The position numbers and the translations under genes are program-made. Shown here in pieces: positions 7,015 to 58,317 of a DNA stretch of 64,000 bases; positions within the stretch are counted from its first letter, which is position 1, and each line of letters begins with the position of its first letter. The notes under the pieces are model-generated. The model had not been told where the DNA came from and ran no database searches. It saw only the letters and a list, made by a program, of their open reading frames with translations. Origin of the DNA: Nemertoderma westbladi (taxonomy: Eukaryota; Animalia; Xenacoelomorpha); the NCBI GenBank assembly GCA_032718475.1, contig JAUCBJ010001154.1:66857-130856 (forward strand), in the 5' to 3' direction.

Positions 7015-7119
7015 AGTTGTGGGGCGAGCCACGAAGTTGGCGGAGCCTTAGCGAATTGACACTGTTAGAGGGTGGGTCAATTTATGCAAATAGTTGTCGT
7101 CGTCGTCGTCGTCGTCGTT

Positions 7120-7158
<39 letters not shown>

Positions 7159-10479: not shown

Positions 10480-10932
10480 CTATTATTGCGAAAACAAGAA
10501 ATTTAGTAAATTTAGGAACTTTATTATTTTAGACAATAAATATTTAAGTTTATTTTGTGGTAATTCGTAGGATCGTACAATACTGTATATTCCACATTCG
10601 ATAATAAAACGTAACGGAAAACACTCTTTTCCACTCATTTTCTTTAGCGAAATTCACAGATATTCCGCCCTAGTGTATTGAGTTTTTGTTGAGTTTGGTA
10701 TTCTAGTAAACTCCTGTAAAACTCAAGCGCTCGAACAGAATAGTTGAATTTGGCTAATCTGAAAATGAGTGAAAAAATCGGTGTACTCCGCTTACTTTTT
10801 ATAAGTTTAGTCCATTCCGTTCCGATGGCCTTAATCTTTCTCTCCAATGGTCCACATATATTTTACTCATATATATCTGCACTCAGTTTACCAATTCGGT
10901 TGTTGAACTGATATATCACTAACTGCACTCAC

Positions 10933-12818: not shown

Positions 12819-13099
12819 CTTAACATTAACTAGAATACTTCACTGTATTAATATTATTATACTACTACTGTTTTTAAATGAATAGTTAGAGGAAAAGTGA
12901 GAATGGAAACGACTACAGTAATTTTATAAAGTGCTTTACTCCACTAATAATCGAAACCTCAGTGCAAGATATAATAGCACTAAACTAATAAAACTTAAAA
13001 ACGTTTTGATATTTACTTTATATCATCTTATATCGAAACGGTAGGATATGACATTTTGAATTGGTTATGTTATTGCCGTTGTGATATAATTTGTTCTGA

Positions 13100-31447: not shown

Positions 31448-31911
31448 TCAATAGGCACAGGGTGTGTTGTGTTCCAGTTCGCCAGTCATCCAACCCAATT
31501 CTCCGTAAGTGTAACCGTGGTCTGGTCTCATTCCCGGCGCATTCATTCCCCCAGGGGGCCCCAGTCGAGGGCCTTCCCCTATGCTGATGGGCCCACCCGG
31601 TAGACACGGCACTGTTGAGAGGTTCGGGTGAAGGTAGGGGGGCGCGTTCTGATTGGCTAATAGTTGTGGAGGAAGTACAGGGGAAAATCCCAAGGGGAAA
31701 CAATTGGAGGGGGCGCTAGCCATTCGGTTGCAGAAGTACTGATCGGGGGAGGGGAATATTGCGTCCACTGGGACGGCGTTAGTGGTGGAAGGCGACACAT
31801 TGTGATGGCCAATAGTTGATACCGATAAGTCGGCGCTAGGAGGCGTACTACATTCGGATGGCGACATATTGTGTTGTAACTTGTTGCCATTATTGTTGTT
31901 TTCCATTGAAG
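31448..31911 (-). CDS. LHX3: LIM homeobox Lhx3/4, last exon (Pro-rich C-terminus)
   Basis: Acceptor tattttcAG at 31912; phase 1 fits the previous exon; open to the stop at 31448. Confidence 0.8.
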
Positions 31912-31975
31912 CTGAAAATAAAAAGAAAAAAAATGAATCATTCGTGGTACAAACCAGAATTATATTTTACAAGAG

Positions 31976-32110
31976 TAATGGTAAACTGTAATGGTAATGG
32001 TAAACTGTAATGGTAATGGTTAACTGTAATGCCGTAATGGTAATGGTAAACTGTAATGGTAATGGTAAACTATAATGGTAATGGTAAGCTGTAATGGTAA
32101 TGGTAAACTG
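31976..32110. repeat. 19-bp GGTAAT-rich intronic tandem repeat
   Basis: GGTAAACTGTAATGGTAAT x ~7. Confidence 0.85.
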
Positions 32111-32160
32111 TCTGCTTTCAATTTATACATTCAATGAGTTTATTTATATGATTTACTTAC

Positions 32161-32295
32161 AGTCAAACTCTCCGGAGAAACAACTCAACGGAGATGATGG
32201 CGGCGAATCCATATTGTCGAGAATATCGCTTCGGTTCATTATTCTAGAACGCTTAGATGGGCGGGAAATACCGTGGTGCGTAAATGAATTAGCGC
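32161..32295 (-). CDS. LHX3: Lhx3/4 internal exon after the homeodomain
   Basis: AG at 32296-32297, GTAAGT at 32160; 135 nt open frame ANSFTHHGISRP...GEFD; phase 1/1. Confidence 0.78.
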
Positions 32296-32412
32296 CTTAA
32301 ATAAATATTAATGTTTTGGTTGTATTTGTAGATATAGATGATATACGTAATATAATGAAAATAAAAAAACAATTACTTATTGATGGATTAAATGTAAATT
32401 GTAATTAATTTA

Positions 32413-32754
<342 letters not shown>

Positions 32755-32840
32755 TTAGTAAACTTATTGTTGCAAAGCATGGATTTATAATTCTAATAAA
32801 TCAATGATCCGTATGTATATGTAAGCAGCTGGTTTATTAC

Positions 32841-33043
32841 CTCTTTGCCTCGCCAATTCGTAGTCAGCTTTGCACATTAGTTTATTATCCTCCATTAGGT
32901 AGAACTCGTCCCCAGTTGCCAACTCGCGTCGACACAGCACGCACACGAAACAGTCGAGATGGTAGGTCTTATCCTGAGCCCGTCGGACTATCTCCGTAGA
33001 TGGGATCCCTTTATCGCAACCGGCGCAACGCGTACCAAACCGA
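32841..33043 (-). CDS. LHX3: Lhx3/4 LIM2 exon
   Basis: RFGTRCAGCDKGIPSTEIVRRAQDKTYHLDCFVCVLCRRELATGDEFYLMEDNKLMCKADYE; canonical AG/GT; absent from the ORF track. Confidence 0.95.
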
Positions 33044-35429
33044 CTAAATAAATTAACGATTTATAATGTTTAACGTTTGTTTGCACACCATCCACTCAAA
33101 AAGCGACAGATTTAACAAACAGTAATATATTTATTTCAAATTTACTTTAATCGTTATTCCAGTATTTCAGGAATAACTATTTGAATATTCCTACGAATAA
33201 ATTTATGGAAATGAAACCGAGGGATCTTATTTTCTTTAAAATGGCGATTTTCACCTTCAAATTTGTCTTAAACAAAAACAATAAAATAACGGATGTTCTA
33301 GTACCGCGATATAACATTGCTGTAACATCTGCTATCTGTATCATCAGTAACCGTTATTTATTTTCATTTATAGTATTTAGGGGGTCTGGTATTGTCAGAC
33401 ACACCACATATCCATCGTCTACAGGTACTACATGGGAGCCAAGTGTGAATGAATCCGGGATGCTTTACAAGTACTACGTTGCGGAGCGTTGGTCCACTGT
33501 GGGCGAGGGAAGGTGAAACAGTAATATTGTCTATTGTGGAATTTATAATAACGTTTTACATGAAAATTAAATAGCTTTATTTCCCGCATCATCCATTGAT
33601 ATATAATTATCCGGTTGACCGATATCGCTCGGCAAATTATAAATCTCGGGGATTTCGGGAAAAAATAATCATAATAATAGTGATTTCCATCTCATCATAA
33701 TTTAAATTGGAATTTAATTTATTTTTAAAGTTAGCAATCGTCGGGCAAAAATTAGGCAAATTGTCCTTGTGCATATCAGTTACCACGGGTTTCGTTATAG
33801 TTAAGTTGACCTTGTTCACTGCTCGACGAGGCGGGTTTGTCCTTGTGGAGGCGGCGTTCGATTAGGAGCGGTTACTATCGGAGTTATTGCTCCATTTGTC
33901 ATCTTTTAGTTGATTCGGACCAACACCTACTGCCCGAAACCCATTAACAGATTGTGCTACAAACCTGACCCACGCTCCGCGCTCTCGCGGCCTTTAATCA
34001 TGGCCAAGCGCATTTGTATATCGCGAGTCGGTCAATGATTGTATGGCGCTGGGCCAAGCGGATCAAGCGGGCCTTTAACATGGGGGCTATGTGTCGCGTG
34101 GCGAGGTTTACCTGAGAGAAAGTTGGCCTAATCCGTCGCGTGCGGTTTCACGGCCAAGCCATAATCAATCCCCACTGATGCCGGAATATTCTCAGGGTGA
34201 ATGGGGCGGGATCGCGCGCGAATCTAGGCGTTATGTTTTCATTGTGTATAATCATACAGAGGCCATAGTGCGTTAGCGGCATCTCTATCTCTACCCACCC
34301 GGCACAACTTAATGAGCTTTGGGAACCCAGCCTACACATTATACATCGAGTTAAGTTCGTAAAACTTTTCTAAACTTAATCTCTACAAGGACAAAAGACG
34401 GAGATTTACTCTAAGCTCTTTCCAGAATTTTCTTAATTCCCGAAGCATTGGTTATATAGGAACTGCGTTCGGCTTTATTTATTGTACGACCGGTTGTATT
34501 GCTTCACTCTCAAGACAGATTTGTGAGTTGGCTTTCAGGCAGGCTCAAAGTTTATTTCGATGCGTAGGTTTAAAGGCATCAATGGGAGGTTGAGTTTAGG
34601 CAAGCCAAGGTTGCCCTTGTCAGGATGTCACTGTGAGTAAATTGATTAGTTCGGTACCTTCGGAAGGTAATCCCTAAGCATAATTCGTGGTGGAGTTACT
34701 GGAGTTGGAGAGATTTATAGGAGACAAGGTTGGCATAATACTAACTCGACGCGTCCAGCTTTCCCTTAGGAATAAAAATGCTAAAGAAAATAAACACACC
34801 ACAAAGGCCAATTTTTGCCGAGTCAAGAGAAGAGACTACATCACATAGAGTCTTCCGTACTCTTCTCCACAATAAAAAAAAGTTAATAAAATCAATGTGA
34901 TCCACTAAACGCGAACTACATAATTACGATCTCCGCGATATCGTTTATTTATTGATGCTGTTTTGTTTACTTCAAATAAGTCATTTCATTGTAGGTCAAG
35001 TAACATGGTTTCAACAATGGTTTATTGAAATTAGTGTCTTTTGACTTACGGGTTTTTACTATTTGCAGAAAAGGCGCGAAATTTTCAAATTGAAATTTCA
35101 CCAAGTGACTTGCGGCTTTTGTCATCATATGGCTGTATCCTACGGAATTAAAGCAGAATTTAATGAGGATTTCAAATCTGAACATGACTTGGCGAGATCT
35201 GTTTCTATGCATTTTCATTAATCACCTGAAGAAGCCCTCCTGATGGGAGAAATCTAGTAATCTAACTGTTGTTACTAATTCCATTAGTCATCTGAGGTCA
35301 ACCCGCCCTACCTTAACTGTTTAGTATAATTCCTTCTTAAGTGCTTTAAGCGAAACGAGATCGCTTTTAGATTTCGAGTTATCACTGTTTCTCCATGTCC
35401 GCCGGTCTGACCGTCAACATGTAAGTTTA

Positions 35430-35752
35430 GACAGACAGCCAGAGCCAGACCAATAGTCAGACAGATTGTACCAGAGCCAGACAAATAGTCAGACAGACAG
35501 CCAGAGCCAGACCAATAGTCTGGCAGATTGTACCAGAGCCAGACAAATAGTCAGACAGACAGCCAGAGCCAGACCAATAGTCAGACAGATTGTACCAGAG
35601 CCAGACAAATAGTCAGACAGACAGCCAGAGCCAGACCAATAGTCTGACAGATTGTACCAGAGCCAGACCAATAGTCAGACAGATTGTACCAGAGCCAGAC
35701 CAATAGTCAGACAGATTGTACCAGAGCCAAACCAATAGTCAGACAGATTGTA
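35430..35752. repeat. Composite ~30-34-bp tandem array in Lhx3 intron
   Basis: CCAGAGCCAGACCAATAGTCAGACAGATTGTA variants. Confidence 0.88.
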
Positions 35753-38120
35753 CAGAACATAAAAATTGTCATTGGAAATTAAATCGCGGACTTCGAAAAC
35801 CACCGTAATGAAAATTATAGCTCTGTGGTGTGTTTCCTTCATGCCAGACATTATTAACCAACCAGAATCCAGACAGACAGTTTTGAGCGGGAAGATTTAA
35901 ACTTTGAAGACAATTTTCTCAGAAAGAGATTTTTCCCCGCAAACAAACACTCCTCTGCCAATTCTTAACCCGTTTTATTGTAATTTTCGCTCCATATGAT
36001 AGGTAATTTCATAAGTTTCGATAACTTTCATGCAGTTTTTTTCTACTTCATAATATTTCCCCGTTCCCACCAAAGCTTTTTGTTTATGCAACCTCTTTCG
36101 AGTTATTTACAAATTAAGGGGGGGGGGGGTTGCCCCCCCCCCCCCTTAATGAGTGCATTAAATAGTATACAAAGCAAAAACACCGCAACTGACAGACTTG
36201 CGGTGTTTTGTCATTGCGACATTTGTTTTTGCATTGCATCGAATGTATTTGCATGCAGGTTGTACAATTCAAAAACACCGTAAATACAAAAAAATTCCTG
36301 AAGTCGAAATATTAATGGAAAGTGAAAAATAATTACGTAGAAAAATTTCCCACCCCAAATTGCGAAGGGTTATAAAAAATTAGTAATTTACGGACATTTT
36401 AAACCATCAATCTGAAGGAAAACAGGAACTTGCGAATTTTTTTACTGGAAATGACTTTTGTGACCTGCGGTCTTTTCACATTGCGCGGCAGTATTAGCTG
36501 TCTCCAAATCACTGAAGGTTGTCCAGAATTAGAATTCAGAGAGCTGATCTATCAGATACTATGCTTTATCTTGGAATAATACGTGAATGATACTTTGTGG
36601 GTCTGCCTTTTACATTTTGATGGTTTACCCTACAATGATGAACAAAATATTATTTATGCCAAACCGAATTCTTTCGTATTTTAATATGCACCTGTAATTA
36701 AAAAAAATATCGAATAATTTGCAGGCCACCTCTTTTGCCGCAGTTGGCTATCGGGATGAATGGCTAGATCGACGGAGTTCCCATGATGGGTCACTACATA
36801 CTTGTTCCATTCTTGTATCAACATATTTGCACTCAACGGCTACATACATATCCATTCACAGTACAAGGATGTAATTTAAGGCCGGTCCCACAACGTAACA
36901 TCTCCACAGTTCGCGATCAGCGTAAATCCCGAATTCATCTACATTACCAAGACCTGTCAATGGCTGACCAGACCACCAGGAATGTCAATGGCTGACCAGA
37001 CCACCATCTCCAGCCAGCTGCCCTGAACACGGTCGCGTAGGGCTGCTCAGTTCTACAAGGGCAGCCTCTGGCAAATTTCATTCATTGTGTCTATCTGTAG
37101 GGTGGTGCTGTGTTTTGGCCATTCTTTTTTACCATCTAGATTCTACAATGCCTCATTTGTTAACTAAGTCTTGTATTTTATGTTATGATCAAACCATCAA
37201 GTATCCTGGTGTACGGATGTGCTACCTTCGAGCGTATTAGATGATTTACTAGTTTGATCTGATCCTGACTAGGTTAAAGGTATTGAGCTCAGCAAAATAA
37301 AATGGTAAATATTCCCTCTTATTACCTACATTACTGCTCGTCGACCAGAGATGTAGCTCACTAGCAGACTGGTGATATAATATGCCGTAGATCAAAGAAG
37401 AAATGGGGCCGAGGGAGGGCCCCTTTGCATGACACTAATTAGGTTTTGCGCTTTACATGTTACATAGGCGGCCTAGTGATGTAAACGACAAGGTAGCCGT
37501 TGTCTAATTAGGGTATCCCGCTGTAATCGACATGTAACCAGCTTCTACTTGTATCGTGGGAGGTTGCCAGTCGTTCAGTATTGGAGGCTAATCCTTTAAC
37601 ATGGCCATATTTTCGGACTCACGCTCGCCAGACTTAAACGGATGGATGGGTGCATTAAAGGACACGCGTTCATCGTAAGAAATAATCTCGGTTCTGTCAT
37701 TAACATATACAATATACCTATTACGCGAAATTGCGAACAATCCTAATCCTGCTGCATTTAAACGATAAACATACTGACCTGGATAAGGCACACGATATGT
37801 TTTATTGCATTGTAAGTGGATAGATATCGCACCCGCGCCAACCCCGAGATTCCCAAGATATTTTATTCAAATTAATTGAAATATTGAAATAATTAATTGA
37901 AATATTTAATTCCTCCGCATGTTTCAAAATCGGGAAGTTATCTTATACTTTTTATCACGCTCTCACAATGTCCGAAGAGCTTGGGGGTGAGGCTGGACGG
38001 CTGGACGCCATATTGTATTCATTGTATATTAAACGCAATTATTACCAACGAATCCGAAACGTATTATTATTTTTATTATTTTTAAATGTTATTTTATTAT
38101 ATATAGTATTATTTTTATTC

Positions 38121-38378
38121 AGCGCAGCTTGGTCTAGTGGTGACATTCCTGGGCTTCCAATTAGGGAGCCCTGGTTCGATCCCTAGATGGGGCAGCACTA
38201 TTTGGGCACAGTGCTTTAAATGCTGCAGCCTAGCCCAACCCCGGCTTTCATCCTTCAGTGGTCGATAAATGGGAACCAAGGCAACTTGGGAAACAGAGTG
38301 GAGGGGTTTACTGTGGAAGATCACCCATGGTGGTGAAGAGGCATTCCTTGGCTTAACGAGCCTAAAATATTCTCCCAA
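38121..38378 (+). mobile_element. tRNA-derived SINE with Nin/Deu-like central domain
   Basis: A box TGGTCTAGTGG, B box GGTTCGATCCC, then GCTTTCATCCTTCAGTGGTCGATAAATGGGAACC. Headless copy at 40713-40930. Confidence 0.75.
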
Positions 38379-39339
38379 TATTATTTTTGAAATTTAATAG
38401 ATATTATATTCTTGATTACTCCAAACTTTACTGTAGAAGGTCCAACGCAATATCTGTCTGACTAATATTATAGTGCATAAATATTTGAGAGTCATCAACA
38501 CTTATAAATTGTATTTTTCGTTCAAACTATATTGTAACACTTTACACGCAATTGCTACAACGGCGTTCAAACTATTTACAATGGCATGGCGCATCCGCCC
38601 AGCTATAATGTTTATGAAATAGTAAAGTTTAACTTTAAAGACGACTTTATTTAATATAACATTTACAGAAAATGTGACAAATACAACCTAATAAATTAAA
38701 AAAATTTATCTGATAAATAACATGATGTTTTCGGTTTAAATTATAAAAAAAAATTTAAATGAATAATTATCCCATCTCTGCGAATTAATATCTCGTCTGG
38801 GCGAGATCGTCTTTGTAAAATATCAATCAAGGGGAAGGATCATGTTATAGGGGCACGTTATTCTAACCAAAACAATAAACTAAAGTCAATAGTACGGATT
38901 ACAGTTTTATTTTTAACAGAAAGATTTTTGACAGAAGAATTATTCCCTCCCCAGGGGAAAATAGACGCAAATAACAGCTGATTACTCCTAAAAAATAAGG
39001 CTGTGAGCTGGTCTATAGACTTTCGTTTATTGTTTTGGTTAAAATAACGTGCCGCTGTAACCTGCTCTTTTCCCTAAATTAGTAATTTAACATTGGGACG
39101 AAATATTATTACGCTGAGATGGGATTTGCGTCAAGCCCCCCCCCCCCCCCCCCCGTCTCGAATAAAGACTGCGATGTAACCAATGCAATAGCAATGGAGA
39201 TATTTTTTCAAATACTTGTGGAACATTTTTTTGAAAGCAAAAATGACATCCACTTAGGTCAAACTATCTCTAAAGTAAATCTTTCAATAAGAGTTTTAGC
39301 TTTTTTGCCCTGCCACTCTGAAATATTCCTAGACAAGGT

Positions 39340-39808
39340 GTACTGCATTGCATACAGCACTTCTCATACATGGCGAACCTCCCGAAGGAACTTACCCAAA
39401 AAAGTCGTCTCTACAGAACAGCTTCCCGCTTCGTACAAAGCATTTATCGTTTAGTACTGCATTGCATACAGCACTTCTCATACATGGAGAACCTCCCGAA
39501 GGAACTTACCCAAAAAAGTCGTCTCTACAGAACAGCTTCCCGCTTCGTACAAAGCATTTATCGTTTAGTACTGCATTGCATACAGCACTTCTCATACATG
39601 GAGAACCTCCCGAAGGAACTTACCCAAAAAAGTCGTCTCTACAGAACAGCTTCCCGCTTCGTACAAAGCATTTATCGTTTAGTACTGCATTGCATACAGC
39701 ACTTCTCATACATGGAGAACCTCCCGAAGGAACTTACCCAAAAAAGTCGTCTCTACAGAACAGCTTCCCGCTTCGTACAAAACATTTATCGTTTAGTAGT
39801 GCATTGCA
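39340..39808. repeat. 114-bp tandem repeat x4 spanning the Lhx3 LIM1 exon 3' end and its splice donor
   Basis: Unit = 61 nt exon-derived + 53 nt intron. Donor GTAAG at 39737, 39623, 39509 and 39395 (- strand). Confidence 0.93.
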
Positions 39809-39915
39809 GTCGCAGCAGCGCAGACATTCGCTGTGCCAACATTTATCTAACACTTTGAGAATAAATCTATCCGCAATGGGCTGTACGCAACTGCAGCAGT
39901 TGGGTAGCTGACCTC
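39738..39915 (-). CDS. LHX3: Lhx3/4 LIM1 exon
   Basis: GQLPNCCSCVQPIADRFILKVLDKCWHSECLRCCDCNALLNDKCFVRSGKLFCRDDFF; acceptor ttattcacAG; phase 2 donor fits the LIM2 exon. Confidence 0.95.
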
Positions 39916-40294
39916 CTGTGAATAAAATTAATATTATTAATTAATATCGGCTATATTGTTCGTATCGCTTTAATTAAAAATTAGCGATAATACGCAAGGC
40001 AAAGTCCAGCTATTCATTTATTTTATTTATTAATTTATTTTATTTGGTTTGAATAAGGCCTGTGGCCGAAATATAACCTTACACCACATTTTTTACGTCA
40101 CTGCACCTCTGCACGGGCAGATCCACCCTTTGTATTACAATGCTTGCAACAGTGACAGGGGCACACACATACTTAGTTATATTATATTATTTTTTATTTT
40201 CAAGTTGACGTCAAACATTCCGTGAAAATTAAATGGGATTTAGTTATATTCAGTGACGGATGTAGAGCGAAGCGAGTGGAAATTATAGATTAGA

Positions 40295-40685
40295 GGTTAT
40301 TATATTAGCTATAGTTATTATATTAGCTATAGTTATTATATTAGCTATAGTTATTATATTAGCTATAGTTATTATATTAGCTATAGTTATTATATTAGCT
40401 ATAGTTATTATATTAGCTATAGTTATTATATTAGCTATAGTTATTATATTAGCTATAGTTATTATATTAGCTATAGTTATTATATTAGCTATAGTTATTA
40501 TATTAGCTATAGTTATCATATTAGCTATAGTTATTATATTAGCTATAGTTATTATATTAGCTATAGTTATTATATTAGCTATAGTTATTATATTAGCTAT
40601 AGTTATTATATTAGCTATAGTTATTATATTAGCTATAGTTATTATATTAGCTATAGTTATTATATTAGCTATAGTTATTATATTA
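40295..40685. repeat. 18-bp AT-rich minisatellite, ~21 copies
   Basis: GTTATTATATTAGCTATA. Confidence 0.95.
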
Positions 40686-40712
40686 TAATTTTTTATATTA
40701 TAATTTTTTTTT

Positions 40713-40930
40713 GCAGCCTAGCCCAACCCCGGCTTTCATCCTTCAGTGGTCGATAAATGGGAACCAAGGCAACTTGGGAAACAGAGTGGAAGGGTTTACT
40801 GTGGAAGATCACCCATGGTGGTGAACAGGCATTCCTTTAGGAAACAGAGTGGAATGGTTTACTGTGGTAGATCACCCATGGTGGTGAACAGGCATTCCTT
40901 GGTTTAACGAGCCTAAAAGATTCTCCCATT
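40713..40930 (+). mobile_element. 5'-truncated copy of the Nin/Deu-like SINE with internal duplication
   Basis: Matches 38224-38378; GGAAACAGAGTGGA...GGCATTCCTT is duplicated. Confidence 0.75.
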
Positions 40931-43900
40931 CATTATAATTTTTTCGGTTGTGTTTTAAGCTTGATTTCTTATTAAATTTATCTGTCCAACTCCACCGAGC
41001 ATGAAATACAATGCAATTTTTTTTTCGTTCAAACACCACCACTGCAACCTGCCCTTTTCCCTTAACTTTTAAATTACACTGAACACACGATCCTGGTATT
41101 TGTGACAATTTTGCACAGATATCTCCGTTACACAGATCGTGAAGAACATTTAGGCTCCCATGTGACTAAATACCAGGTTTTCAGTATGAATAATTTATAT
41201 TTAAAATTTCACCTTAGCGCTTATTTCTATCTTATAACTTTTACAGATACTTATTCGTTTATTGTTTTGGTTCGATCCAGCCCTTCTGTAACTTGTGTTT
41301 ATAGTGAAAAACTGGTATTCTTCAAATGGGGGTAAACTGCAAAGTGAAATGTAACAGCAGAAAGTTTGGTATACCTCAAATTAGGTTGCATGATGACAGG
41401 CATAACGGCAATAAAATGTTCAAGTTAAGTTATCGGTGAACGTGAAACAACTTCACCCCGCACCCACCACCCAATCACAAGCCTGGTTTCCATATCACGG
41501 GGCACTGGGCAGCTGGCGAGCGAACCCCAGTTTCGAAATTTCATCAGGTTCTTACTGGTACCTGGTACCTCCCAGCTATCGCAATTATGCTTCGTATCCT
41601 TTACAGTATATTGAACTTCAAATTATAATCGCAATATTTTGGCACCGGGACCAGCATCAGTTGGGGTATTACAGTATATTAAATTGTCCTAATCTTTGCT
41701 AATGATATTCTTACTATTCAGTTAGGCGTAGGTCCGACTGAAGTGACCAAATCAATCATTATAGGTATTTAGTATCAGTTTGGTGTACCGGTAGAGGACT
41801 TAACCAGAATTCAGTATAGGTAGGTACTTTTTGACGTACTACTTAAAATTAGGTGTGCACCAAATAACGGTTTAGTATCGGTATTATGAACTTACCCAAA
41901 TCATTAGGCAGGTACTTAGTATCTGTTTGTCCTATGTGGTTGTTTAATGCCCCCTCTCGTATCGGCATCATACCGACTTCCAGGCAGTGATGCATAAGCT
42001 TATTATTTATAAATTAAAGATTGGTTTGAGAATGATTAATAAATCCAATACTTTTCACCAACATAAATAAGGCTGTTAGGAATACGAATTCTTCGCGATC
42101 CGTATATTACACGTTGCTGATTCCAGTTAATTTGATATAGTGTGATAATTGATAATAATTTAGGAAATTAATTTTTTAACAATAACTGAATTATTTTGAG
42201 TGGTTGGTATTACAGTAACGACTACTACGGAAATTATTTATTATCACTATAAGATAAAATGTTGTATCAAGGACTTTTTTTTATGTTTACTATATGAAGT
42301 TGTGCGTAATAAGAGTGAGTGTGGACTCTCTGCCTAAGCTCCACCTTTATATTCTCTCTCACGAAACCTTTGAAAGTATCCTCATACTTTCCACCAACTA
42401 CAGCCTGCTATTGGCTGAGTGCGGGCCCTTTACCGTATAAGTGCCAATGAGAATGCATGCCATTTGCCTAGCTTGCTGTAGCACAGGTAAAACCGGTATG
42501 CTTCGGGGAAGCTTATAGAATCTCGTTCACAGCCGCAGCCCAACTAACAATGTGCGTGCGACTGTATGGTACTAAACTCTACTGTGCAATATTACTGTAG
42601 ATAAGGTAAATACAGTAGGTATATCGCTTTATGGATATGCGTCCGTTGGCTGGTCTTTGTTTTTTCCTCTGAGTTCAACCCACTTCTTGTATGATGTAGG
42701 TTTTCTTTGCTGGCGGCCGCGCCACCCAACCCCATCCGATTGCCTTTGGCAAGCTCTTCTATGGGATCCTCACTGCAGCAGTTCTAAGACTTCCCAATAT
42801 CTACCAACTTCCTATACCATAAGTAAGAGAGGAGAAGTCAGCCCAACAACATACTTAGCGGCCATCAATTATTGCCGTTGCTATAAATAAACCTTATTTA
42901 GCCAAAATTACCTACACAATGGGGTACATTTGCTTTCCTAATCTCATAAACAATTAAGTGTTTAAAGATGGAACGTCATTGACTATAATGACTTTGAAAT
43001 ATGAAAAAATATATTTTCACCCCATAAAAGGGAAAAGCTCGAAAATCACCATGGTAAACACAATACATTATTTTTCATTGTTCTTCCTAAACAATTTATT
43101 CTTTAATGGAACGTTTTTTTATCCGCGGATCCCAAATTGCTTTGTTAATTAATTATTAATTATTAATCATTGGAAAAATTTTGATGTCGATCGTTATATC
43201 GGTCTGTGGTGAAGAGATCCTCATGCAGTTCCTCGGACACGGTCACCGTCCATGGTTCCGAAGGTGAAGACTTTGAAAAAAAAACATTTTTAATGAATAC
43301 CTGTTTTTGATGAAAACTTTTAATTGAAAAACGAAATAGAAATGAGAAGGCCCATCCACTAGGTAGTTGGGAATCAAAACTTCCCCTTATAAATTATAAT
43401 AAGCGTAAATAATAAATTGGGCTATCGCGCTATTTATTGCAAGAATAATATTGCAAGAGAAGCTAGCAGTAGTGTGTTATCTTGCGGCTTTTCTTAAAAC
43501 AATAAATTAATCACATGAGATACCATAACCCTACATACAGCACAATTAATTAGCACCGGTATAACCGTCACCGTTCTTTGGACTAACAACTTAACACAAT
43601 CAAAATACAACCTTCTACGGAGAAAAATCAACGCAAATAACAGTTGATTGCGAGCAAAATTTAAACTGTATGTATGCTATTAACTTAGTTAATTGGTTTG
43701 GTTAGAGTAACATGTTATTGTAATATATCATTTCCATGACAGTAATTAATTTATTATTGAAATTTTTAATTCATCTGGACAAATATTAATTTACAAAGAT
43801 GGAAAAAGAAAGTCATCAAAGATTGAAGTATTGTTTATCCCTGTCCATTGCCTAGCAATACGTGTATCTTAATTATCTAATTAATCTTCTTTGTGCTAGA

Positions 43901-45672
43901 GTGTCTGTAGTTAGGTCTGTACTGTGCAATAATTGTAAGGTTATTGTTTCATGTACGATAATAATAATAATAATAATTATTATTATTATTATGGTAAATA
44001 TTTCCGTTTGCGAGTTCGAACCAAATGGTATGTAGTCCCCCCCCCCCCCCCCTCCCCTGCAACAGTATTCATTGATTATGAATCGCAAAATATGAAACTC
44101 AAGTAAGCGCTAAGTTCTTGAATTTTCTATTTCTTTTTGTTTTTTGTTATGAACGTAATACATTAGGCTGACGACACGTTTTGTTTTTATTTTAGCAAAA
44201 GAAGAGCGAGACTACGACGGCAAATAAACTGTGGGAATCCATGACCTGGGGCGCTCTCTCGGCCGATCCTTAATGTGTTTTCTTTGATTTAATATCGTTC
44301 CACAAATCGGCAAGAGGTGCATTACTAAAGTGAGAACTTTTCCACATTCAAAGCAATTATTTTCTTTGGGGGCCTCTCAAGGAGGGGCACATGTACCGCT
44401 CCAATGAACAGCTAATGGACATCCTGATCAGCTTGTAAACACGGCCAGTCGCGTCTCTGATGTTTCAATAACAAGGTGGGTTCACCCAACACCACAGTCA
44501 GTCAGTATCTACCGTAAATGTCGCTTTCTATGTGGGGCGTTACCGATTAGCATTTGGCACTGCAGCTTAATTTTTGTCTGGATCGGTAACTAAATGTCTA
44601 ATTGAATTGAAGAGCAAAACTTTCAAATCACAAAATTTTCCAATATGAATGAATAGAATAGAATGTATCGAAAGAATCTTCTACCTACATCTGTTGCACT
44701 TCGTACCTACCAAACTGAAAGCTTCGAACGTGTCATGTGCGATTTGTATTTTGAATATCAGCGCTAGACCTGACGTATTTCACTCCTTGAAGCTCATCAT
44801 AAGTTTATGATATTTATTAAATATATTTAATATTTATTTAATATTATCTTCTCAACTAATCATTGCTGTGTGTTAGGGTGTTGTTACTGCGGTTTGGACT
44901 TTGCTTCTAATATCTGTCATATCGTATTATATTTGTTCATTATGATTTAGGATTATGTTTGCTTTTTATGTTTTTAATTCCATTTAATTTCATTGGGTTG
45001 ATGATGTCACCAGTTTCTCCTTAGATGATACGTTTATAGTAATAGTTGCCAACCATATATCTGCTTGGTGATTTCTTTATTGGAAATTTTTGTTAAAGTC
45101 TGGAAGATAATTTATATATATCGGTGCAATTAATGATGAATATAATTTGGTTCGTCGGTCGTAGAATCTTTTAGATTTCAATTACATGCATAGCAACTAG
45201 ACAGAGTTCATCTAATAATGTATATGTGCTGAAATCTACTACAGTACAGTAATATTATAGTGTTCGTAAACGTAAGTTTAGCAAATTGTAAATCGCATCC
45301 AATATGTATCTAATATATAGAATGAAAGATCGTTTCATTTGGAGAGCGCATAGAAAGCTGGAGGTTGTGCATCAGAGCATGTGAGTTCTTCATGTAGCCT
45401 CGTGTGGGAAGTAGTTTTATTATTTGAAACTGTGATTAGTTGAGTTTTCGTTTGACACTGGCCAAGTAGCTATGGAGAGCTTAACATTATTCTTCAGATG
45501 GACGAGTGTATATAAGGGAACAGGGCGTTGGATTGACTTTCCGCTTTGAGTACCCCTAGCTTGCCAGGGATTATAGCGCAGCAAGAAGTCCTCATCCTGG
45601 CCTCCAGCCATTCCATTAATTAATTGGGGGTCAATTCACATTGAGTTGTGGTAAAGCTCCAGGCCCATTTAC

Positions 45673-45727
45673 CTCCAGCGTGCAATGCCCACTTGTACTT
45701 TAAGGGCAGGGAGGCGCATCCATCCAT
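45673..45727 (-). CDS. LHX3: Candidate first coding exon of Lhx3/4 (MDGCASLPLKYKWALHAG); joined CDS would be 433 aa
   Basis: ATG at 45727, donor G|GTAAAT in phase 1 matches the LIM1 exon, GC-richer upstream region. No homology support. Confidence 0.45.
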
Positions 45728-46328
45728 CCTCGCAGAGAAGTAATTAACGAAACTTTGTCACTAGTAGAACTCGCCACAACTCACACGCGACTCACTGGTA
45801 TATCCCACGCGGTCCCTACCAGTAGTCCTGGCCTCAGGATCTCTGAATCGACCCCATGTTGCGATAAATCGTCTTTCTCAATCGCTTTGTGTTTGTTTGT
45901 CGGTTGGTCGTCTTCAGTCCCGGTATATAATATGTTTACGGACCACTTATCTTACACTCGCCGGACTGATAGAGGCGCCCCTCTCAAGAAACATTATTAA
46001 TGATATTTTGTAGCGTTCATCCTGTGAAGTTAATTAAATGCGATTTTGAAGGCGGTTAAGCTACAGGTATTAATCTTCATTTGAAAAGACTTGAAAAGAC
46101 ACTTTTTTATAGTCATGTGTCATTGCTTCATGCTTAGTCCAATGCATCATGTTATCAATAAATCAACCCCAATCCATTATCAGTCACCCCACCCCATTTT
46201 CATTGTATTGACTAGACTAGAGTGACCTGTTTCCTATATTCGGTAGCTGTTTTTAGCAGAATTACAATTTCCCAGCTAGCTGCTGGAGTGGTCTACCTTT
46301 ACTTATAGCTCGGTGGTCCCGGTTTCGA

Positions 46329-48100
46329 TATATGGGTCAATGCCAACCATATTGACCAATGTCCCGTACGTGATTTTTGAAAGCATTTGTCATAGTGATG
46401 GTTAGAAAGAGCGATAATTTCTGCATATGAAACCAGAAAGTGCCCCAAAAATTTCTTGGCCGTTATTGAGAGAAACGTTCCGGAATGCAAAAATTGAGAA
46501 AAACTTTTTGTCACATATGGGAGATTTATAAATATTTTTTTCGTACTTTATGTCCATATTCTTGAAAATTTTAAGTAACAGTCGTTTAATGGTGGTATTG
46601 AGGTGTCCGGCAAGAGATATCAGATCGAAGTGGAAAGTTTCCTGGTGAGAAAAAATTTAAAAATTCTGTCGCTAAAAATAATTTTTTTATAGAATGACAA
46701 CACAAAGTTTCACTTTCTGGGAAACTCTGCCGTGAAAAGTGGAACTAATTGTTTTTTTCCTGTTAATAACAATGTGATACACAAAACTGTTGCATATGGT
46801 CAACTGAAAACCGTTATTTTATATCAAAAAATTAATTTGAAAATGTAAATAGACAGTTTTTTTGATGTCATGTATGGAACATATTGATATGGTATAGGAA
46901 GGAATTTACATGGAAACGATTATTATAAATTTTGAATCCAGTTTATGGTCCTTCCCACTGCCAACTCCTGTTCCATTCCCAATTTCCACCCCACTCTCAA
47001 CTACTGTCCCAATCTCAAAACCCTTTCCACAAACAGTTAATTTGGTAATAAATTAATTTGGTCTGTTGTCAATTAGGGGGAAGGAGTAGGTTTACAGTTT
47101 ATCTGTGACTGGTAAGCCCCCAGCCATTAATTAAATGTAAGTAATTAGTTGTTTAGACCATGATTAACTTTTCCCCCAACACAATGTCAAGTATGGGACA
47201 TCCTGTCACGTTATGGGACATGGTAGTTTTTTCAACCTGGCCAAATAAATGTTTACGTAGTGTCTTTCTGATACAACCCATACATGGAAAAACTATCTGA
47301 GAAATGATGTGAAGTGATGATCTAAATCTTGTGTTCTTGTGTCGTGGTCGTGTGTTCTAAATCTTGTGTTGAGTTCTCGTTTTCTGATAAAAAATCTCCG
47401 TTAAGTATGGGACACTTTTTTGGACCATTTTGGAGATGCTCACGGAAGATATTCATATAAACTGCTAAGTCACCAAAAATTGCCAATCTAACTGATTCAA
47501 ATGGAAGAATATGAGTGGAAGTGTTAACACATCGGGTTATTGGCTCACATTTGACAATTTATATGCCATTGAATTAATAATTACCGAGTGCCACATTTGT
47601 GACAACGTGTGTCGTATTTCCCGTATGTCACGTACGGACCAAGTGAATGTTTTTGTATTTCTGATATCTCAAATTCACTTCGAAGATAAGATACGTTTAT
47701 TTGTTCACAGGAATTATACTCAGCAGGGATATTAATCGTTTGGCACCCGAATTGTAATATTAATGGCCAAAATGAGCCCATCATAAAATTTGAAAAATGT
47801 CCCGTACGTGACGATTTTTTTTAAATTCGTTGTAGCCCTTTCTATAACAAACTGTGGTTGGAGTGTATCACAGCAGGAGGTGACCGATTATTGTGTATTC
47901 GTTGGAGTGAATCACAACAGGAGGGGACCGATTATTGTGTATTCGTTGGAGTGTATCACAGCAGGAGGTGACCGATTATAGTGTATTCGGCAATCAAATT
48001 ATCAAAGCCACCCGACCATTCATTCTCAAATGATTTACATTTTTGTATATTTTTTGTCCCGTACGTGACTTGGTCAATATGGTTGGCATTGACCCATATA
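46329..48100. mobile_element. ~1.77-kb non-autonomous DNA transposon with perfect 31-bp terminal inverted repeats
   Basis: TATATGGGTCAATGCCAACCATATTGACCAA (46329-46359) is exactly inverted at 48070-48100. Internal TGTCCCGTACGTGA motifs. Confidence 0.85.
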
Positions 48101-48240
48101 AAGTGTTCACTGTTCAACTTTGCGAGTTAGTTTGACGCTCCTCTCTCTACCTTACAGGAAACAGCCAAGAGAGAGGAGCCAACGGATTGCCACCGATGTT
48201 GATGATGATGTTGATGTATAAAACAGAGATCGGAATTAAA

Positions 48241-48850
48241 TAAAAAAGTAAACTTATAATTCAGATACTGTTACATAGTATTAAGTAAAAAAAGTAAACT
48301 TATAATTCAGATACTGTTACATAGTCTTAAGTAAAAAAAGTAAACTTATAATTCAGATACTGTTACATAGTATTAAGTAAAAAAAGTAAACTTATAATTC
48401 AGATACTGTTACATAGTCTTAAGTAAAAAAAGTAAACTTGTAATTCAGATACTGTTACATAGTCTTAAGTAAAAAAAGTAAACTTATAATTCAGATACTG
48501 TTACATAGTCTTAAGTAAAAAAAGTAAACTTATAATTCAGATACTGTTACATAGTATTAAGTAAAAAAAGTAAACTTATAATTCAGATACTGTTACATAG
48601 TCTTAAGTAAAAAAAGTAAACTTGTAATTCAGATACTGTTACATAGTCTTAAGTAAAAAAAGTAAACTTATAATTCAGATACTGTTACATAGTATTAAGT
48701 AAAAAAAGTAAACTTATAATTCAGATACTGTTACATAGTATTAAGTAAAACAAGTAAACTTATAATTCAGATACTGTTACATAGTCTTAAGTAAAAAAAG
48801 TAAACTTATAATTCAGATACTGTTACATAGTATTAATTAAAAAAAAGTAA
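48241..48850. repeat. 46-bp AT-rich minisatellite, ~13 copies
   Basis: AACTTATAATTCAGATACTGTTACATAGTMTTAAGTAAAAAAAGTA. Confidence 0.95.
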
Positions 48851-51800
48851 CAATATTCATTCTATAGAACTGTGGGCTACCTGACTAAACATTAAATATC
48901 CTATCATTATTTACTTGCCTTTAATCCGTTCAAGCTGAAACTGGGCAGATATGTAATAGTAGACCATCAATGGTGTCTATCAATGGGTGCTAAGCCGCCT
49001 GCAGTTCTCCAGTCTGCCGCTACAGGGCGAAATGCTGATAGTGAAATCGTTCTCTCATTTCTTGATTTATGATCCGTTCAAGCTCAAACTTGTGGGATGT
49101 GTTCTAGAACTCAGTTTGCGTCTTTGTGGGGACGGTAATTGGTCTTCAATTTCTCCAGTCTGCCGCTAGTGGGCGAAATGTCTGAAGGTTTTCGTATATC
49201 TAAGTGAGATTAGTACCATTTCTTATAATGGCTCTCGTGCTGTGCGAAGGCCCCACGTACAACGTGTATATTAATACAAAAGGCTATTATTATCTGTTCA
49301 AATCCATTGAGATAGGTTTGGGTCTAACGAATGAAGAGCAACATTGTACCGCTCATAATTGAATTAAGCAGAGTTGCAGATTATCTTGCATTGTGTTTGT
49401 TTTTCACATTTTCTTTGTTGGTGTCTCTGTTGTCGGAGATGGATCTGAGTAAATGTCGCCATATGTTGTCGGAATTCGCCATCCAGTTTACTGTAACATT
49501 CTCTGTATGATGAGCCGCATTCTTTGTACATGTAGAGCGGGATCGAGGTTGTTTACAGCTGTCGGATGATAGCCAAACTGAATTTATTGATGACTACCAT
49601 CAGTTTCGTGAGATAAGTTTTTGTGTATCTAATGTAAAAGCGACATGCCGAGCAAAAGGGTGATACCTGTAAAAGAGCGTCTCGCTTTAAAATGTTGTAC
49701 ATTTATATTAGTTATGTAATTTGGATTAATTTGGTTCTATTGTCTTAAGTTTTCACCACCAATTAACATGTACAATATAATAGCTATAATATAGACTATA
49801 CGGAGTCCCTATGATGTATTTTGTATAACAAATGATGTTAGTGCGAGAAGTGAAAATGGACAGTATAGTTATTAACGCGTCATTTGCGACTTGTTATTGA
49901 GTTAGGGACGTTTTTGATAAGTCGTTTGGGTTCATTCAATGTATAGGCTAGTGTATTTATGATAAATAATTAATTGAGCGTACTAATTACTTCATAAATG
50001 ATATCCATCTAGTTTTATTATTCATTTGCACATTTTTGGCGTCGAATTGTCGTGAAATTTATTACTTTCAATGAGATACGCCAATGCCAACATGTATCCC
50101 TGAGTGCACGTATATAAAGTAACGATATTCGGTTGATTTACTAAACTATGTTAAAAATCTTCTAAATTATTTAAAATCATGTCCGTTAGAGTATGTGTTT
50201 GTGTACGAGTATCCGTTAGAGGCTCAAGTATTCATAATTTACTCGAGGATATTCTTTGTGTATCAGGTGGAAACCATGACAACCCGAATGTACTGAAACT
50301 AACTCATCTTGAAGCTGCGTTCGAGGGAGTTTTCGGTTCATGATAGTGGATTGTGCCGGATAAAATGTATCTATTGGATTATTATTGTTAGTATATTTTA
50401 GAGTTATTTTCAGTATTTTGTAGATTATTGTGCGATGTTACAAGTATAATAGCTTCTCGAGTTTTTCTTGAACATTTCCTCAAAGAATTATGAATTGTAA
50501 AATGTTTTAAATTTAAAAACAATTCAAATTCTTTCCTAATATTTTTTACACTGTTGTGATTATATTTTGTGCCCCACAATGTGGTGTTTATGTGTTCGAA
50601 TGTTACCTAGTAACATAAACGACGACCATCAGACGGGTGGAATCAAAACCTTAAATAAATAAAATAATAATAATTACATAATTACATAACTACACAATAA
50701 ATTATTTACTACCTAATAACTTTCAGAAGTTCACCTCTACTTATGTTTACAATCCATACGCTAGTGAGATTAATTTCTGACTTAAAGGAATGTTGATGAT
50801 TGTCTTTTTTATTTCATACACAAGCAGGAAGTATCTTAAGGAACACTTACACTCTCAAATCTCAACACCCTTGCGAATAGAATCTAAATCTCACTTCCGC
50901 ATCCACCGGGTACTCCATCACTCCCCATCACCAAACTACCCAGATTCACTCTAATATCTTGCCAGAAGCTTCTCTTTGGGTAGTGGTACATCTTGAAACT
51001 GGAAATCAACATCTTATCTATAATTTGATCTGGTGATGACTCTGTGTGCGATCAACTTGGCAACATCTGCAACTTTATGATGGTGACAATAAATGTAATC
51101 CAGTTGAATTAATACACTATGCATCGCATCAATGGCAAGGTCACCTAATGTTTGGGGATTTCGAGAAAAATAACAATTATTTATTGAACTGGAATGGAAT
51201 TAACACCCCCAATATACCCTGTTTGACATCCAAGATTGCGCAACTGGTCAAGCGTGCCATGTTTATGTATATGGATCAGTGAGTAGGGTACAGTATACAC
51301 ACACTTCACCTGAAGAAAACCTGGCCCATAAAATATACCTAGAAGGCCCCGAAGGCTAACAGATTGCCTCTACGGGAAGCTATGAAGGTAGATCTACCTG
51401 CATTAAAAGGACTGACAGTTTGTAGTCAGGAATGGAATGAGCCCTGCATTGCACTCAATGTAGCTTATACAACTGCCATTGTAAAAAATCGACAGTGCCC
51501 TTACCAATCTGCCACTCTGATCCTCTGTTATGCTTGCATTTCTTGCACCAGAAGGCAGATATGACGGCTACGCCACACAGCAAACTTTCATTAATTAATC
51601 ATAATGACGACAATAGAGTGTGCAGAGCATAGTATGAGTTAGAAAGCCAAACTAATTTTCATGCCAGGAAAAATGAAATAGCTCCCCAGTGATGTCTCTA
51701 GCATATTGGACATATTTTATGAAATCCCCAATGTGTTGTGTCCAATAGGTTTACTATGGTTAGTTCAGTGCTCTGTTGCTGACCTCAATAATTTCGAAAT

Positions 51801-53236
51801 TTTACAACCAGTTCGTACGAAAGTTCTAATGAGTCATGGATCTGAAACGGAATTGAATCATCTCTATTTGAGATATTTTTATGTTTCTGTATAAACAATT
51901 GGCTCTATACCGCCACCCGATTTATGTGTACTCTTAGGGTTGCTTGTATATCTGTCGCAGATCTACATTACATACAGTGGCCTACTGCCACTCTTAGCTG
52001 TATCCAGCAGGGCCATGTCGGGTGCAATTGATGATCTGGAGGCGGCCAGAATAACAGGAGTGCTGCGGTAAAAAATAACAAGTAGGTTATTATCGCAGAA
52101 TTTATGATGGAATCCATGGCATGTACCGCATTTAGTGGTGATTCCTCTATGATGCTGCAGACCTTCTGAACCGGTCGTTTTATCGTAAAGATGCAACGTT
52201 CGCATTTCGTTTACCAAGATATTCCCTGTATTTGTCTAAATAGTTTTAATACCAAATCGAGACGGGTGGAGGATGACTAAATATCTCAACTTTCGAACAA
52301 AGTGATCAAAATTTCACAAAACGTAGTAAGATTATTCACATACGTTCTAAATAAATTTGCATCCAAATGACAATTTCCGCTGATAGTTAGTCAAAATTAT
52401 TGTCAAATATAAGAAAAGCACCCAAAAAAGTGTAGAATTCAAATTTATTATAAAACGACAAACAGTAAAGTTTTGATGAGATTTTGGGGCGAGCCACGAA
52501 GGTATGTATGCTGTGGTATGCTAATGGTGAAGTCGATATGGACAAATCGTTTATAAAATTAGACGTAATAGTTGCAAAGAAATTAATTTACTTTATTTCC
52601 TGTCACTTCTTTATTTCTCGGGATTTGAATTAGCATCGTACTGCATGACAGGAAGATAGGGAACTGCATGACAACTACATGTAGGGTCGTTCACAGTCAG
52701 CGGTGTATCGCTGGCCCAGCGGTACACCGCGGGGTGTAGCGTTCCGTTGGATGTGAACGGGCCTTAACGCACATCCCGGTTCTGGATTAATTGTATTTTG
52801 ATATTTACAGTGATTGAAAGTAGCCAAAACGATTCACTACTTTCTAATTTTGTTTTTATTTTTCTAAAAAATTTTTTCTTGAATTTCAACCTTGGTTGGT
52901 ATTCATGAAACATTGGTAACATTGACTACAAGTAGGCCCCCTATAGGTATGCAGGTACTTTTTAACTTAAATTTTCACTTTTTAAATTCCTTCCCCTCCA
53001 TCCTCGTATCCTCTGAAAGTCAGCTGTTTCCAACCACCTGTGGTTTATATAAATTTCATCCCCGTATGATATGCGAAAATGAATGGTACAACCTCCTGCT
53101 GGCTCAATAAGTAGAGGGAATCCAGTACCTTATTAATCTAGAACTTTAGTAGTACTGAAGAATCACTAGAGGGAGCCCAAAGGCGCTTCGGCTCATTGGA
53201 GCAGGTTGCTTCTAGTGTTAGTCTTTCTGTAATGAC

Positions 53237-53575
53237 TTGTGCTACTTTGGATCATGGATCCGGAAGTCAAGTTATGGCCTTCCTATACGTATGGGAAAAG
53301 CATGGGCAGCATTGAATAGTCTGAATGTCAAGGTTCGATTATTTAGGGTTGCAGTAGAACGAGTACTGAAATATGGGAGTCCATGTTGGTCTCTAACTGC
53401 TGAGTACACCAAATCTCTGGATGGCACTTATGGAAGAATGCTACGCCTGGTTCATTGTGCCGAGTACAATGAACACATCTACATTTCTAATCAGAACTAT
53501 ACAACATTGGATTTGTCTCATCAGTCCCCCCAAGCTTGACACTTGGACGGTGCCGCCTCCGCTTTGTTGGACATA
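53237..53575 (+). mobile_element. Degenerate RTE-type LINE fragment
   Basis: YFGSWI...KAWAALNSL...KVRLFR...YGS.CWSLT...LDGTYGRMLR. Confidence 0.72.
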
Positions 53576-54285
53576 GTACAACAACATATTTAAGTGGTGT
53601 GCTATAGTACGAAGTAGTAATTACAGTAATGGTTGCTTAATAGATACGGTAAGTAAGGTACGGTACGGTTCGAATTCTGATTCGGTTGGACTCAACGAAC
53701 ATTTATTAAAGCAAGTATAATAGATGCTACATGAGCCAGACTCTTCAGGTAACCATAGCGGATAGGATTGCTAGCAATGGATATGGATAAGGCGAGGAAT
53801 CGGTTTAGTACTGTCACATGCCTCGCAAGTGCAATATAGACAGGTTTAATTAATGTAGGTTGGGTGAAGCTGGGGTGTCACTAAGACTCTCTGATAAATA
53901 TCCGGATAAAAGTCGCTTACAAACACCAAAATATATAATTAATGTCGCAAGAAAAATTTGGATAAAAAAGTCTCGCCCAAAACAATTTTCCAGCTAAAAC
54001 CAATTTTCCAGACAAAAATAAATATTAATTACCGCAGAATAACTACATAATTTCCTCCGATATTTGGTCATGGCCGGCCGCCAAGCAATAATTTTGGAAA
54101 ACGTTTTATATTTACCAACTAAGGAAAAGGAGCAGGATGCAGAGACAGTATTTTCTAACCAAAACAATAAACGATATCATTAGAAATTAATATAAAAGAG
54201 CAGGTTACAGTACCTTGATTGATACTACATTACATTTCAGTTATACATATTTATGTAATAATAAATAATGAATAAACATTTAAAG

Positions 54286-54425
<140 letters not shown>

Positions 54426-57736: not shown

Positions 57737-58317
57737 TATGAATATCAAATAATTTTAATTTTGATTTGAATACAAAACTGTTCTAATGTTTATTGTGTTT
57801 ATTTGTTTTATCTCACAAGGCTTATTATAAGCGGTATAATTCCTAGAAGGTTATTGCTGATTCTCCACTTGTCTCTTAAACTAAACATTTATTATAAAAG
57901 GTCATAAAAATAATTTCATCAGCTGCTGAAAAATTGGTTGGTGGATTAGGTACAATGAGTGGGTGGTGCCGTAGGGTTGCAACAGTTGTTAGTTGATAGA
58001 GGCATATAACGAACAATACCAACAATTATTGGGAAATAATCCCTCTGTTTTACTTGTATTGTTTTTATTGGTTACAACAGCCGGTCTGATATTGGTTTTA
58101 TTGAAATTGGAAATTACTACTTTAGGTTGAGCCACATCAGATCTCTTATGTGTAGGTTGGAAGAAAAGGTTGGAGACGTTAGGCATCGTGACGTTTTCGG
58201 TTTGTCATGGTATGCCACAGTCGTAGACATGTACTGTACACCGATCACACATTCGTTGGGCCGTCGCGTACTACTCACCTACTAAAGTTTGATTTAATTC
58301 CGAACCAGCGATGCTGA

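What the first reader, a model, noticed from the sequence alone, without database searches (positions are those of the whole stretch)
39340..39915. Lhx3 LIM1 exon end and splice donor tandemly quadruplicated
Seen: the last ~61 nt of the LIM1 exon plus 53 nt of intron are repeated 4 times via TGCAATGCA microhomology, giving four identical GG|GTAAGT donors. Each 53-nt spacer also ends in CAG, mimicking a mini-intron. Using any downstream donor reads TTT GGG TAA (stop), and including a 61-nt pseudo-exon frameshifts to a stop. Inference: decoy donors in a key developmental transcription factor could yield truncated or NMD isoforms, or represent exon duplication in progress.
Basis: partly seen in the sequence, partly recalled or inferred. 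Interest (0 to 1): 0.7.

Follow-up and report, generated by a model that had tools for sequence, protein, structure and literature searches.

The report
Repeated splice donor in Lhx3 intron
The end of one exon of an animal Lhx3/4 gene and its splice signal sit four times in a row, but the one spliced transcript seen uses the first, genuine signal, so this is likely a harmless repeat of a kind already described in amphioxus and human genes.

Summary
The repeat is real. A 114-nt unit (61 nt of LIM1 exon end plus 53 nt of intron) stands 4.1 times at 39340-39808 and gives four identical donors. Two DNA runs of one sample hold the unit as a closed loop at 3.0-3.8 times local depth; four donors predict 3.3. 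A second sample shows much higher depth and a unit with one extra base, a hint of length variation. One run filed as 'DNA?' proved to hold spliced transcript. Its contig joins 39738 to 33043, carries the copy-1 base, and keeps the frame through LIM2 and the homeodomain. Downstream donors or the 61-nt pseudo-exon would give stops, but none was seen. Contigs drop rare forms, and it is unknown whether that animal carries the array. This is an exon/intron-boundary minisatellite like the amphioxus 'mirages' and the human F7 intron 7 repeat. About 11% of the window is tandem repeat. The scan noted this layout before in other genomes. Verdict: ordinary, low interest.

The parts
41896..41995 (-). Predicted first coding exon (ATG to a phase-1 donor, 33 codons + 1 base); not verified
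   Evidence: one of 3 G|GTRAG sites in 39950-56400, one of 2 with an in-frame ATG, and the nearer. The transcript contig runs 358 nt on beyond the LIM1 exon, but those letters were not shown.
39738..39915 (-). LIM1 exon of Lhx3/4 (178 nt), acceptor CAG at 39918-39916
   Evidence: Pfam LIM; X4 contig matches 39738-39916 with 0 other letters
39340..39808 (-). Tandem array, 114-nt unit x 4.1, spanning the exon/intron boundary
   Evidence: closed 144-nt contig in runs X1 and X2
39796..39808 (-). Exon-side copy of the 13-nt microhomology (12 of 13 match)
39340..39352 (-). Intron-side copy of the microhomology; end of the array
39732..39737 (-). Authentic donor GTAAGT (used)
   Evidence: Joint 33043-39738, GT..AG, depth 26.6, 35 letters on the short side
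39685..39737 (-). First 53-nt intron spacer ending in CAG (copies at 39571-39623, 39457-39509, 39343-39395)
   Evidence: weak acceptor context
39624..39684 (-). Exon-end copy 2 (61 nt) followed by pseudo-donor at 39623
39510..39570 (-). Exon-end copy 3 followed by pseudo-donor at 39509
   Evidence: a one-base insertion behind 39511 in one X3 contig
39396..39456 (-). Exon-end copy 4 followed by pseudo-donor at 39395
32841..33043 (-). LIM2 exon
   Evidence: Pfam LIM E 1.2e-19; joints at both ends
32423..32666 (-). Homeodomain exon
   Evidence: Pfam Homeodomain E 1.2e-22; joints
32161..32294 (-). Fifth exon
   Evidence: Joints (boundary may shift by 1-2)
31448..31911 (-). Last coding exon to the stop codon
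   Evidence: Joint 31911-32161; stop starts at 31450

Best explanation
This is a minisatellite that repeats an exon/intron boundary: a 114-nt piece holding the end of the Lhx3/4 LIM1 exon and its donor stands four times, the one spliced transcript seen uses the first donor, and the extra copies are likely spliced out as neutral intron. Shown: anatomy, presence in read-derived DNA contigs, first-donor splicing in one transcript run, intact frame. Inferred: birth by slippage or unequal exchange at a 12-of-13-nt microhomology, then expansion of the junction unit. Also inferred: first-donor choice by position, because the sites are identical. The first gives a 178-nt exon behind an AT-rich acceptor and is transcribed first; the others would define exons of 292, 406 and 520 nt. 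Any leak to later donors would give a premature stop, probably removed by NMD (recalled rule).
For:: run X4 shows 4 GT-AG joints of this gene, one of them 33043-39738 across the whole array (depth 26.6, 35 letters on the short side); the same contig matches 39738-39916 once, with 0 other letters, so it bears the T at 39782 that only copy 1 has in the window; the five joined exons give a 406-codon open frame, and the LIM1-LIM2 linker is 6 residues as in 43 of 44 fetched homologues. X1 and X2 each hold a 144-nt contig with 0 differences whose first and last 30 letters coincide, a closed 114-step loop; depth ratios are 3.5-3.8 (X1) and 3.0-3.7 (X2) against 3.34 predicted for four donors; the spacer CAG has 50% pyrimidine, 33% T and 51% A+T upstream, against 58-92%, 50-83% and 67-82% for the 5 acceptors used by the contigs; 29 merged arrays cover 11% of the window, and random placement would put about 0.1-0.2 arrays on a donor per window. 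Precedent: F7, LMNB2, PDGF (PMC1557585); amphioxus mirages (PMC3087553; PMC3902484).
Against: X4 is a third sample (S3) and it is not known whether that animal carries the array. It is one run of one study, filed as 'DNA?'; that it is RNA is my inference from its joints. Contigs drop rare forms, and NMD would deplete exactly the isoforms in question. In 2 of the 5 human cases listed in PMC1557585 (6-16 and CBS) two pseudo-sites are also used. The donor here is a strong GTAAGT, and that paper found competition only for perfect-consensus sites. Contig depth is a rough guide to copy number (tool warning). Sample S1 may be the source of the window. The loop contig has only 27 exon-specific letters past the microhomology, under the tool's 31-letter bar for bridging.
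Confidence: 0.85

Rival explanations
1. Leaky decoy donors: part of the pre-mRNA uses donors 2-4, giving a stop right after LIM1 and either NMD or a LIM1-only peptide, so array length would tune Lhx3 dose.
For: The four donors are identical and equally accessible in a folding model. Any use gives a stop. Human 6-16 and CBS use two pseudo-sites besides the true one (PMC1557585 introduction). X3 depth hints at a longer array in another animal.
Against: The transcript contig passes through the exon end once without a break and joins at 39738. F7, LMNB2, PDGF and the amphioxus Adh3, TnC and globin cases use the true donor. No sign of selection on the array: an X3 contig shows a one-base insertion in a unit.
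Confidence: 0.1
2. Exon duplication or intron gain in progress: the spacer acts as a mini-intron and the exon-end copies become new small exons.
For: Each spacer ends in CAG and each copy ends in a donor. Four other AGs in the unit would give in-frame inserts of 27, 26, 11 or 5 residues. The mirage paper proposes such repeats as a hypothetical route to new introns (PMC3087553).
Against: The CAG route shifts the frame to a stop, even for three copies. The CAG lacks a T-rich tract and lies in a predicted stem (whole-sequence fold not significant, z -0.73). The shortest intron seen in this gene is 128 nt. The linker is fixed at 6 residues in 43 of 44 homologues, so inserts would likely harm.
Confidence: 0.03
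3. Assembly artefact: the genome has one copy and the window repeats it by error.
For: The three junction units are identical. S1 may be the assembly's own sample. No listed contig spans the whole array.
Against: Contigs built from reads hold the intron-to-exon junction as a closed loop at about 3-4 times local depth in X1 and X2; X3, another sample and study, shows 211-456 depth on parts of the unit against 20 beside it. First and last copies differ from the middle ones at two sites.
Confidence: 0.02

Closest known systems
Amphioxus 'mirage' minisatellites (Adh3, troponin C, globins BflGb6/BflGb9, PGBD5); PMC3087553 (passages of abstract, section 16 and supplement legends read), PMC3902484 (one passage read)
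   Same: Tandem copies spanning an exon/intron boundary in an invertebrate gene; unit of similar size (157 bp at the exon 3' end in BflGb9; 60 and 108 bp in PGBD5); edge units differ from inner units; normal splicing is kept; copy number differs between haplotypes.
   Different: Here the gene is a LIM-homeobox factor and the copies are 99% alike. Length instability is only hinted by contig depth, not typed.
Human F7 intron 7 37-bp VNTR, with LMNB2 (100-bp unit) and PDGF intron 4 (81-bp unit) as cited there; PMC1557585 (abstract, passages, Discussion read)
   Same: The first unit spans the exon/intron junction; identical 5' pseudo-sites follow; only the most upstream is used.
   Different: F7 repeats 4 exon bases, this unit 61. 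F7 pseudo-sites were shown to be usable by mutation; that was not tested here. The host is not a mammal.
Human 6-16 (IFI6) and CBS intron 13 VNTRs (seen only as described in PMC1557585; CBS also in passages of PMC2630376)
   Same: Same layout of reiterated donors.
   Different: There two pseudo-sites are used besides the true one; here no second donor was seen, within the limits of contigs.

Membership tests
Exon/intron-boundary minisatellite (mirage / F7-type) | Head-to-tail units whose first copy spans a true exon/intron junction | tested here: met
Exon/intron-boundary minisatellite (mirage / F7-type) | Splice signal reiterated in the intron as identical pseudo-sites | tested here: met
   Four identical donors
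Exon/intron-boundary minisatellite (mirage / F7-type) | Normal mRNA made from the authentic (most upstream) site | tested here: met
   Joint 33043-39738 in X4; one run, array genotype of that animal unknown
Exon/intron-boundary minisatellite (mirage / F7-type) | Copy number varies between alleles or individuals | tested here: inconclusive
   S1 depth fits about 4 donors; S2 depth is about ten times its flank and has a variant unit, but depth is uneven in that run (long contigs 4-29)
Exon/intron-boundary minisatellite (mirage / F7-type) | Pseudo-sites work if the first is mutated | not testable with these tools
   Needs a minigene
6-16/CBS-type (pseudo-donors partly used) | Transcripts from the second or third donor | tested here: inconclusive
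   None in X4 contigs, but contigs show presence, not absence
Tandem exon duplication | Whole exon with its own acceptor and donor copied, in frame | tested here: not met
   Only 61 of 178 exon bases are copied, the true acceptor is not, and inclusion shifts the frame
Lhx3/4 LIM-homeobox gene | Two LIM domains, then a homeodomain, with best hits to Lhx3/Lhx4 | tested here: met
   no family tree was built

The most novel reading that the evidence does not exclude
The array is a length-variable set of decoy donors: longer alleles divert more Lhx3 pre-mRNA to a stop right after LIM1, so repeat number acts as a heritable dial on the dose of a developmental transcription factor, hidden in ordinary RNA data by NMD. 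The copies may also trade bases with the coding exon end.
Probability: 0.05. Interest if true: 0.55.

Novelty: new member of a known kind. Interest (0 to 1): 0.12.

Why it matters
Little as it stands. It adds one more case, in a developmental regulator of an invertebrate-like animal, of a described layout in which the most upstream of several identical donors is used. Because every wrong choice would cut the protein after LIM1 and the array may vary in length, it would be a clean natural reporter for positional 5' splice-site choice outside mammals. It would matter only if array length were shown to change Lhx3 output.

Tried and rejected
No whole genome is held, so no genome-wide count of such arrays and no check for a second Lhx3 copy. 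No RNA holder listed; that blank is no evidence, and X4 proved to hold spliced contigs only when laid. X4 has no cover on 39400-39699 and no joint to donors 2-4; the depth in bin 39700-39999 (15.9) is fully explained by the exon contig (15.87). I count this as not seen, not as absent. X1-X3 have no cover on 39176-39395, so the array's exit was not seen; this may be graph trimming near the C-run and the repeat at 39137 and below, or the tool's filter, and proves nothing. RNA structure does not tell the donors apart: unpaired probability is 0.001-0.003 for all four, and the unit folds no better than shuffles (z -0.73). The plus-strand open frames across the array (178 and 192 aa) give only Pfam hits below the curated cut-off except one 19-residue hit inflated by repetition; rejected as chance. 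Rfam: 0 matches in the window. Paper searches listed no report of this layout in an Lhx3 gene; the library lacks most subscription journals. The dog LHX3 intron 5 repeat (PMC3223203, listing and abstract start only) is a different thing, a contracted 7-bp repeat. The original 6-16 paper is not held; the LMNB2, PDGF and Adh3 papers were not read. Supplements were not read; the mirage alignments there could refine the comparison. A look-up of earlier findings by sequence gave only an unrelated chance hit.

Full report
Observation. The window holds a 114-nt unit 4.1 times at 39340-39808 with 99% matches. On the minus strand each unit is the last 61 nt of a LIM exon plus 53 nt of intron, giving identical donors GG|GTAAGT behind 39738, 39624, 39510 and 39396. 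The array ends are a 12-of-13-nt microhomology, TGCAATGCA[C/G]TAC, once in the exon and once 114 nt on in the intron. Two sites mark the edge copies: T at 39782 in the real exon against C in copies 2-4 (silent), and G at 39374 in the last intron copy against T in the others. The three junction units are identical.

The gene. The exon is a LIM domain, followed by a second LIM exon and a homeodomain exon. The best solved matches of LIM1 are Lhx4 and Lhx3. The LIM2 exon found 44 proteins among 52 candidates, headed by 'Lhx3-like' entries of scorpion, amphioxus and centipede at 73% identity, none near-identical. It is an Lhx3/4 gene of an unnamed animal; no tree was built and no genome is held. 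A first coding exon at 41995-41896 is predicted from frame and donor alone.

Is the repeat in the DNA? Four of the 6 listed runs were laid. X1 and X2 (one sample) each give a 144-nt contig with 0 differences. Its first and last 30 letters coincide, which is what a closed loop of 114 words of 31 letters looks like, and it reads from intron back into exon. Its depth is 334.6 against 87 or 96.5 nearby in X1, and 75.3 against 20.3 or 25.3 in X2: ratios 3.8, 3.5, 3.7 and 3.0, against 3.34 predicted for four donors, 2.34 for three and 4.34 for five. X3, another sample and study, has depth 211-456 on parts of the unit against 20 on the flanking contig, and one contig with an extra base in the T-run of a unit (depth 27 of 217). 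That hints at a longer, more varied array. Limits: the tool warns that depth is no copy number; long contigs in X3 range from 4 to 29; S1 may be the window's own source; no listed piece spans the array; the loop has 27 exon-specific letters past the microhomology, under the tool's bar of 31. The X1 flank contig ends at 39769 with one unlisted difference, which would fit C at 39782 in that animal; this is inferred from the contig end.

Which donor is used? X4 was filed as 'DNA?', but its contigs skip four introns of this gene at GT-AG ends: 33043-39738, 32666-32841, 32294-32423 and 31911-32161 (a fifth joint, 36117-36297, has other ends and lies in an intronic repeat). I take it as transcript. 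The 572-nt contig covers 39738-39916 once with 0 other letters and goes on 35 letters into the LIM2 exon at depth 26.6. It therefore has one exon end, with the copy-1 base, joined from the first donor. The five exons joined at these places give 406 open codons, and the LIM1-LIM2 linker has 6 residues as in 43 of 44 fetched homologues. Against over-reading: this is one run of a third sample whose array genotype is unknown, contigs drop rare forms, and NMD would thin out the forms in question.

What the other choices would give. Any later donor keeps the first spacer and stops one codon after the exon. One or three 61-nt pseudo-exons stop after 3 more codons. The spacer's CAG is a poor acceptor: 50% pyrimidine, 33% T, 51% A+T upstream and no match to my branch-point pattern (recalled), against 58-92%, 50-83% and 67-82% for the five acceptors used. 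It lies in a predicted stem, and the shortest intron seen in the gene is 128 nt. The CAG is simply the intron's side of the microhomology and stands behind the last copy as well.

Mechanism. Shown: anatomy, presence in read-derived contigs, first-donor splicing in one run. Inferred: slippage or unequal exchange at the microhomology made two copies, and the junction unit then expanded; the two edge sites fit this, or an exchange between two alleles. Duplicating across a donor leaves the 5'-most exon whole and only lengthens a 6.7-kb intron, so it costs nothing if the first donor wins. The donors are equal in sequence and in modelled accessibility, so the choice must rest on position: first transcribed, and nearest to the upstream acceptor (178 nt against 292, 406, 520). 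The background explains why it happened here: 29 merged tandem arrays cover 11% of the window, and random placement of the 14 larger ones would hit a donor 0.1-0.2 times per window, for an assumed 8-15 donors. A dispersed repeat at 40715-40910 has a 63-nt internal doubling that its sister at 38225-38365 lacks, so such doublings are indiscriminate here.

What is known. PMC1557585 (abstract, passages and Discussion read) describes the human F7 intron 7 VNTR, whose first unit spans the exon/intron border and whose identical pseudo-sites stay silent unless the first is mutated. It lists LMNB2 (100-bp unit) and PDGF (81-bp unit), where only the true donor is used, and 6-16 and CBS, where two more are used. 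PMC3087553 (passages) and PMC3902484 (one passage) describe amphioxus 'mirages' in Adh3, troponin C, globins and PGBD5: same layout, unstable length, normal splicing, and a hypothetical route to intron gain. My seven paper searches listed no such array in an Lhx3 gene.

Verdict. Observation confirmed; the decoy or exon-birth reading is unsupported by the one transcript available, though not excluded at low level. New member of a known kind. Interest 0.12. The boldest reading left, a copy-number dial on Lhx3 dose through hidden NMD isoforms, gets probability 0.05.

Noticed in passing
window 41896-41995 (-): Likely first coding exon of Lhx3/4. Its donor shares 13 nt (TTTGGGTAAGTTC) with the LIM1 donor; 5 matches in the window, 0.01 expected, but the pattern was picked after the fact and is half consensus.
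   Followed up: partly
window 32666-32690 (-): The homeodomain exon uses the acceptor at 32666, inside a CAGCAGCAG run, while a better-looking in-frame CAG lies 24 nt upstream at 32690; possible alternative acceptors.
   Followed up: partly
window 38769-39125: Nested inverted repeats (99-nt and 29-nt arms) with very high depth in all four runs: MITE-like element in the Lhx3 intron next to the array.
   Followed up: no
window 38225-38365 and 40715-40910 (-): Two copies of a dispersed repeat, very abundant in the transcript run (depth 13102); the second has an internal 63-nt tandem doubling. SINE-like by recall only; no Rfam match.
   Followed up: partly
window 5271-12839 (-): EMAP-like gene with a doublecortin domain, HELP motif and two EML propellers, in long exons (ORFs of 636, 162 and 514 aa).
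   Followed up: no
window 56453-57754 (-): MFS transporter in one open frame of 433 aa, apparently without introns.
   Followed up: no
window 1915-3835: 48-nt x 40 minisatellite, 97% matches, with open frames on both strands up to 672 aa; probably a by-product of a stop-free unit.
   Followed up: no
window 33009-33038 (-): The two Lhx3 transcript contigs of X4 break 5 nt inside the LIM2 exon with a 30-nt overlap, which implies a branch in the read graph that was not shown; cause unknown.
   Followed up: no
window 40122-40251: Sample S1 shows two haplotypes here (6 substitutions, 7 gap letters), so the intron upstream of the LIM1 exon is strongly heterozygous.
   Followed up: no
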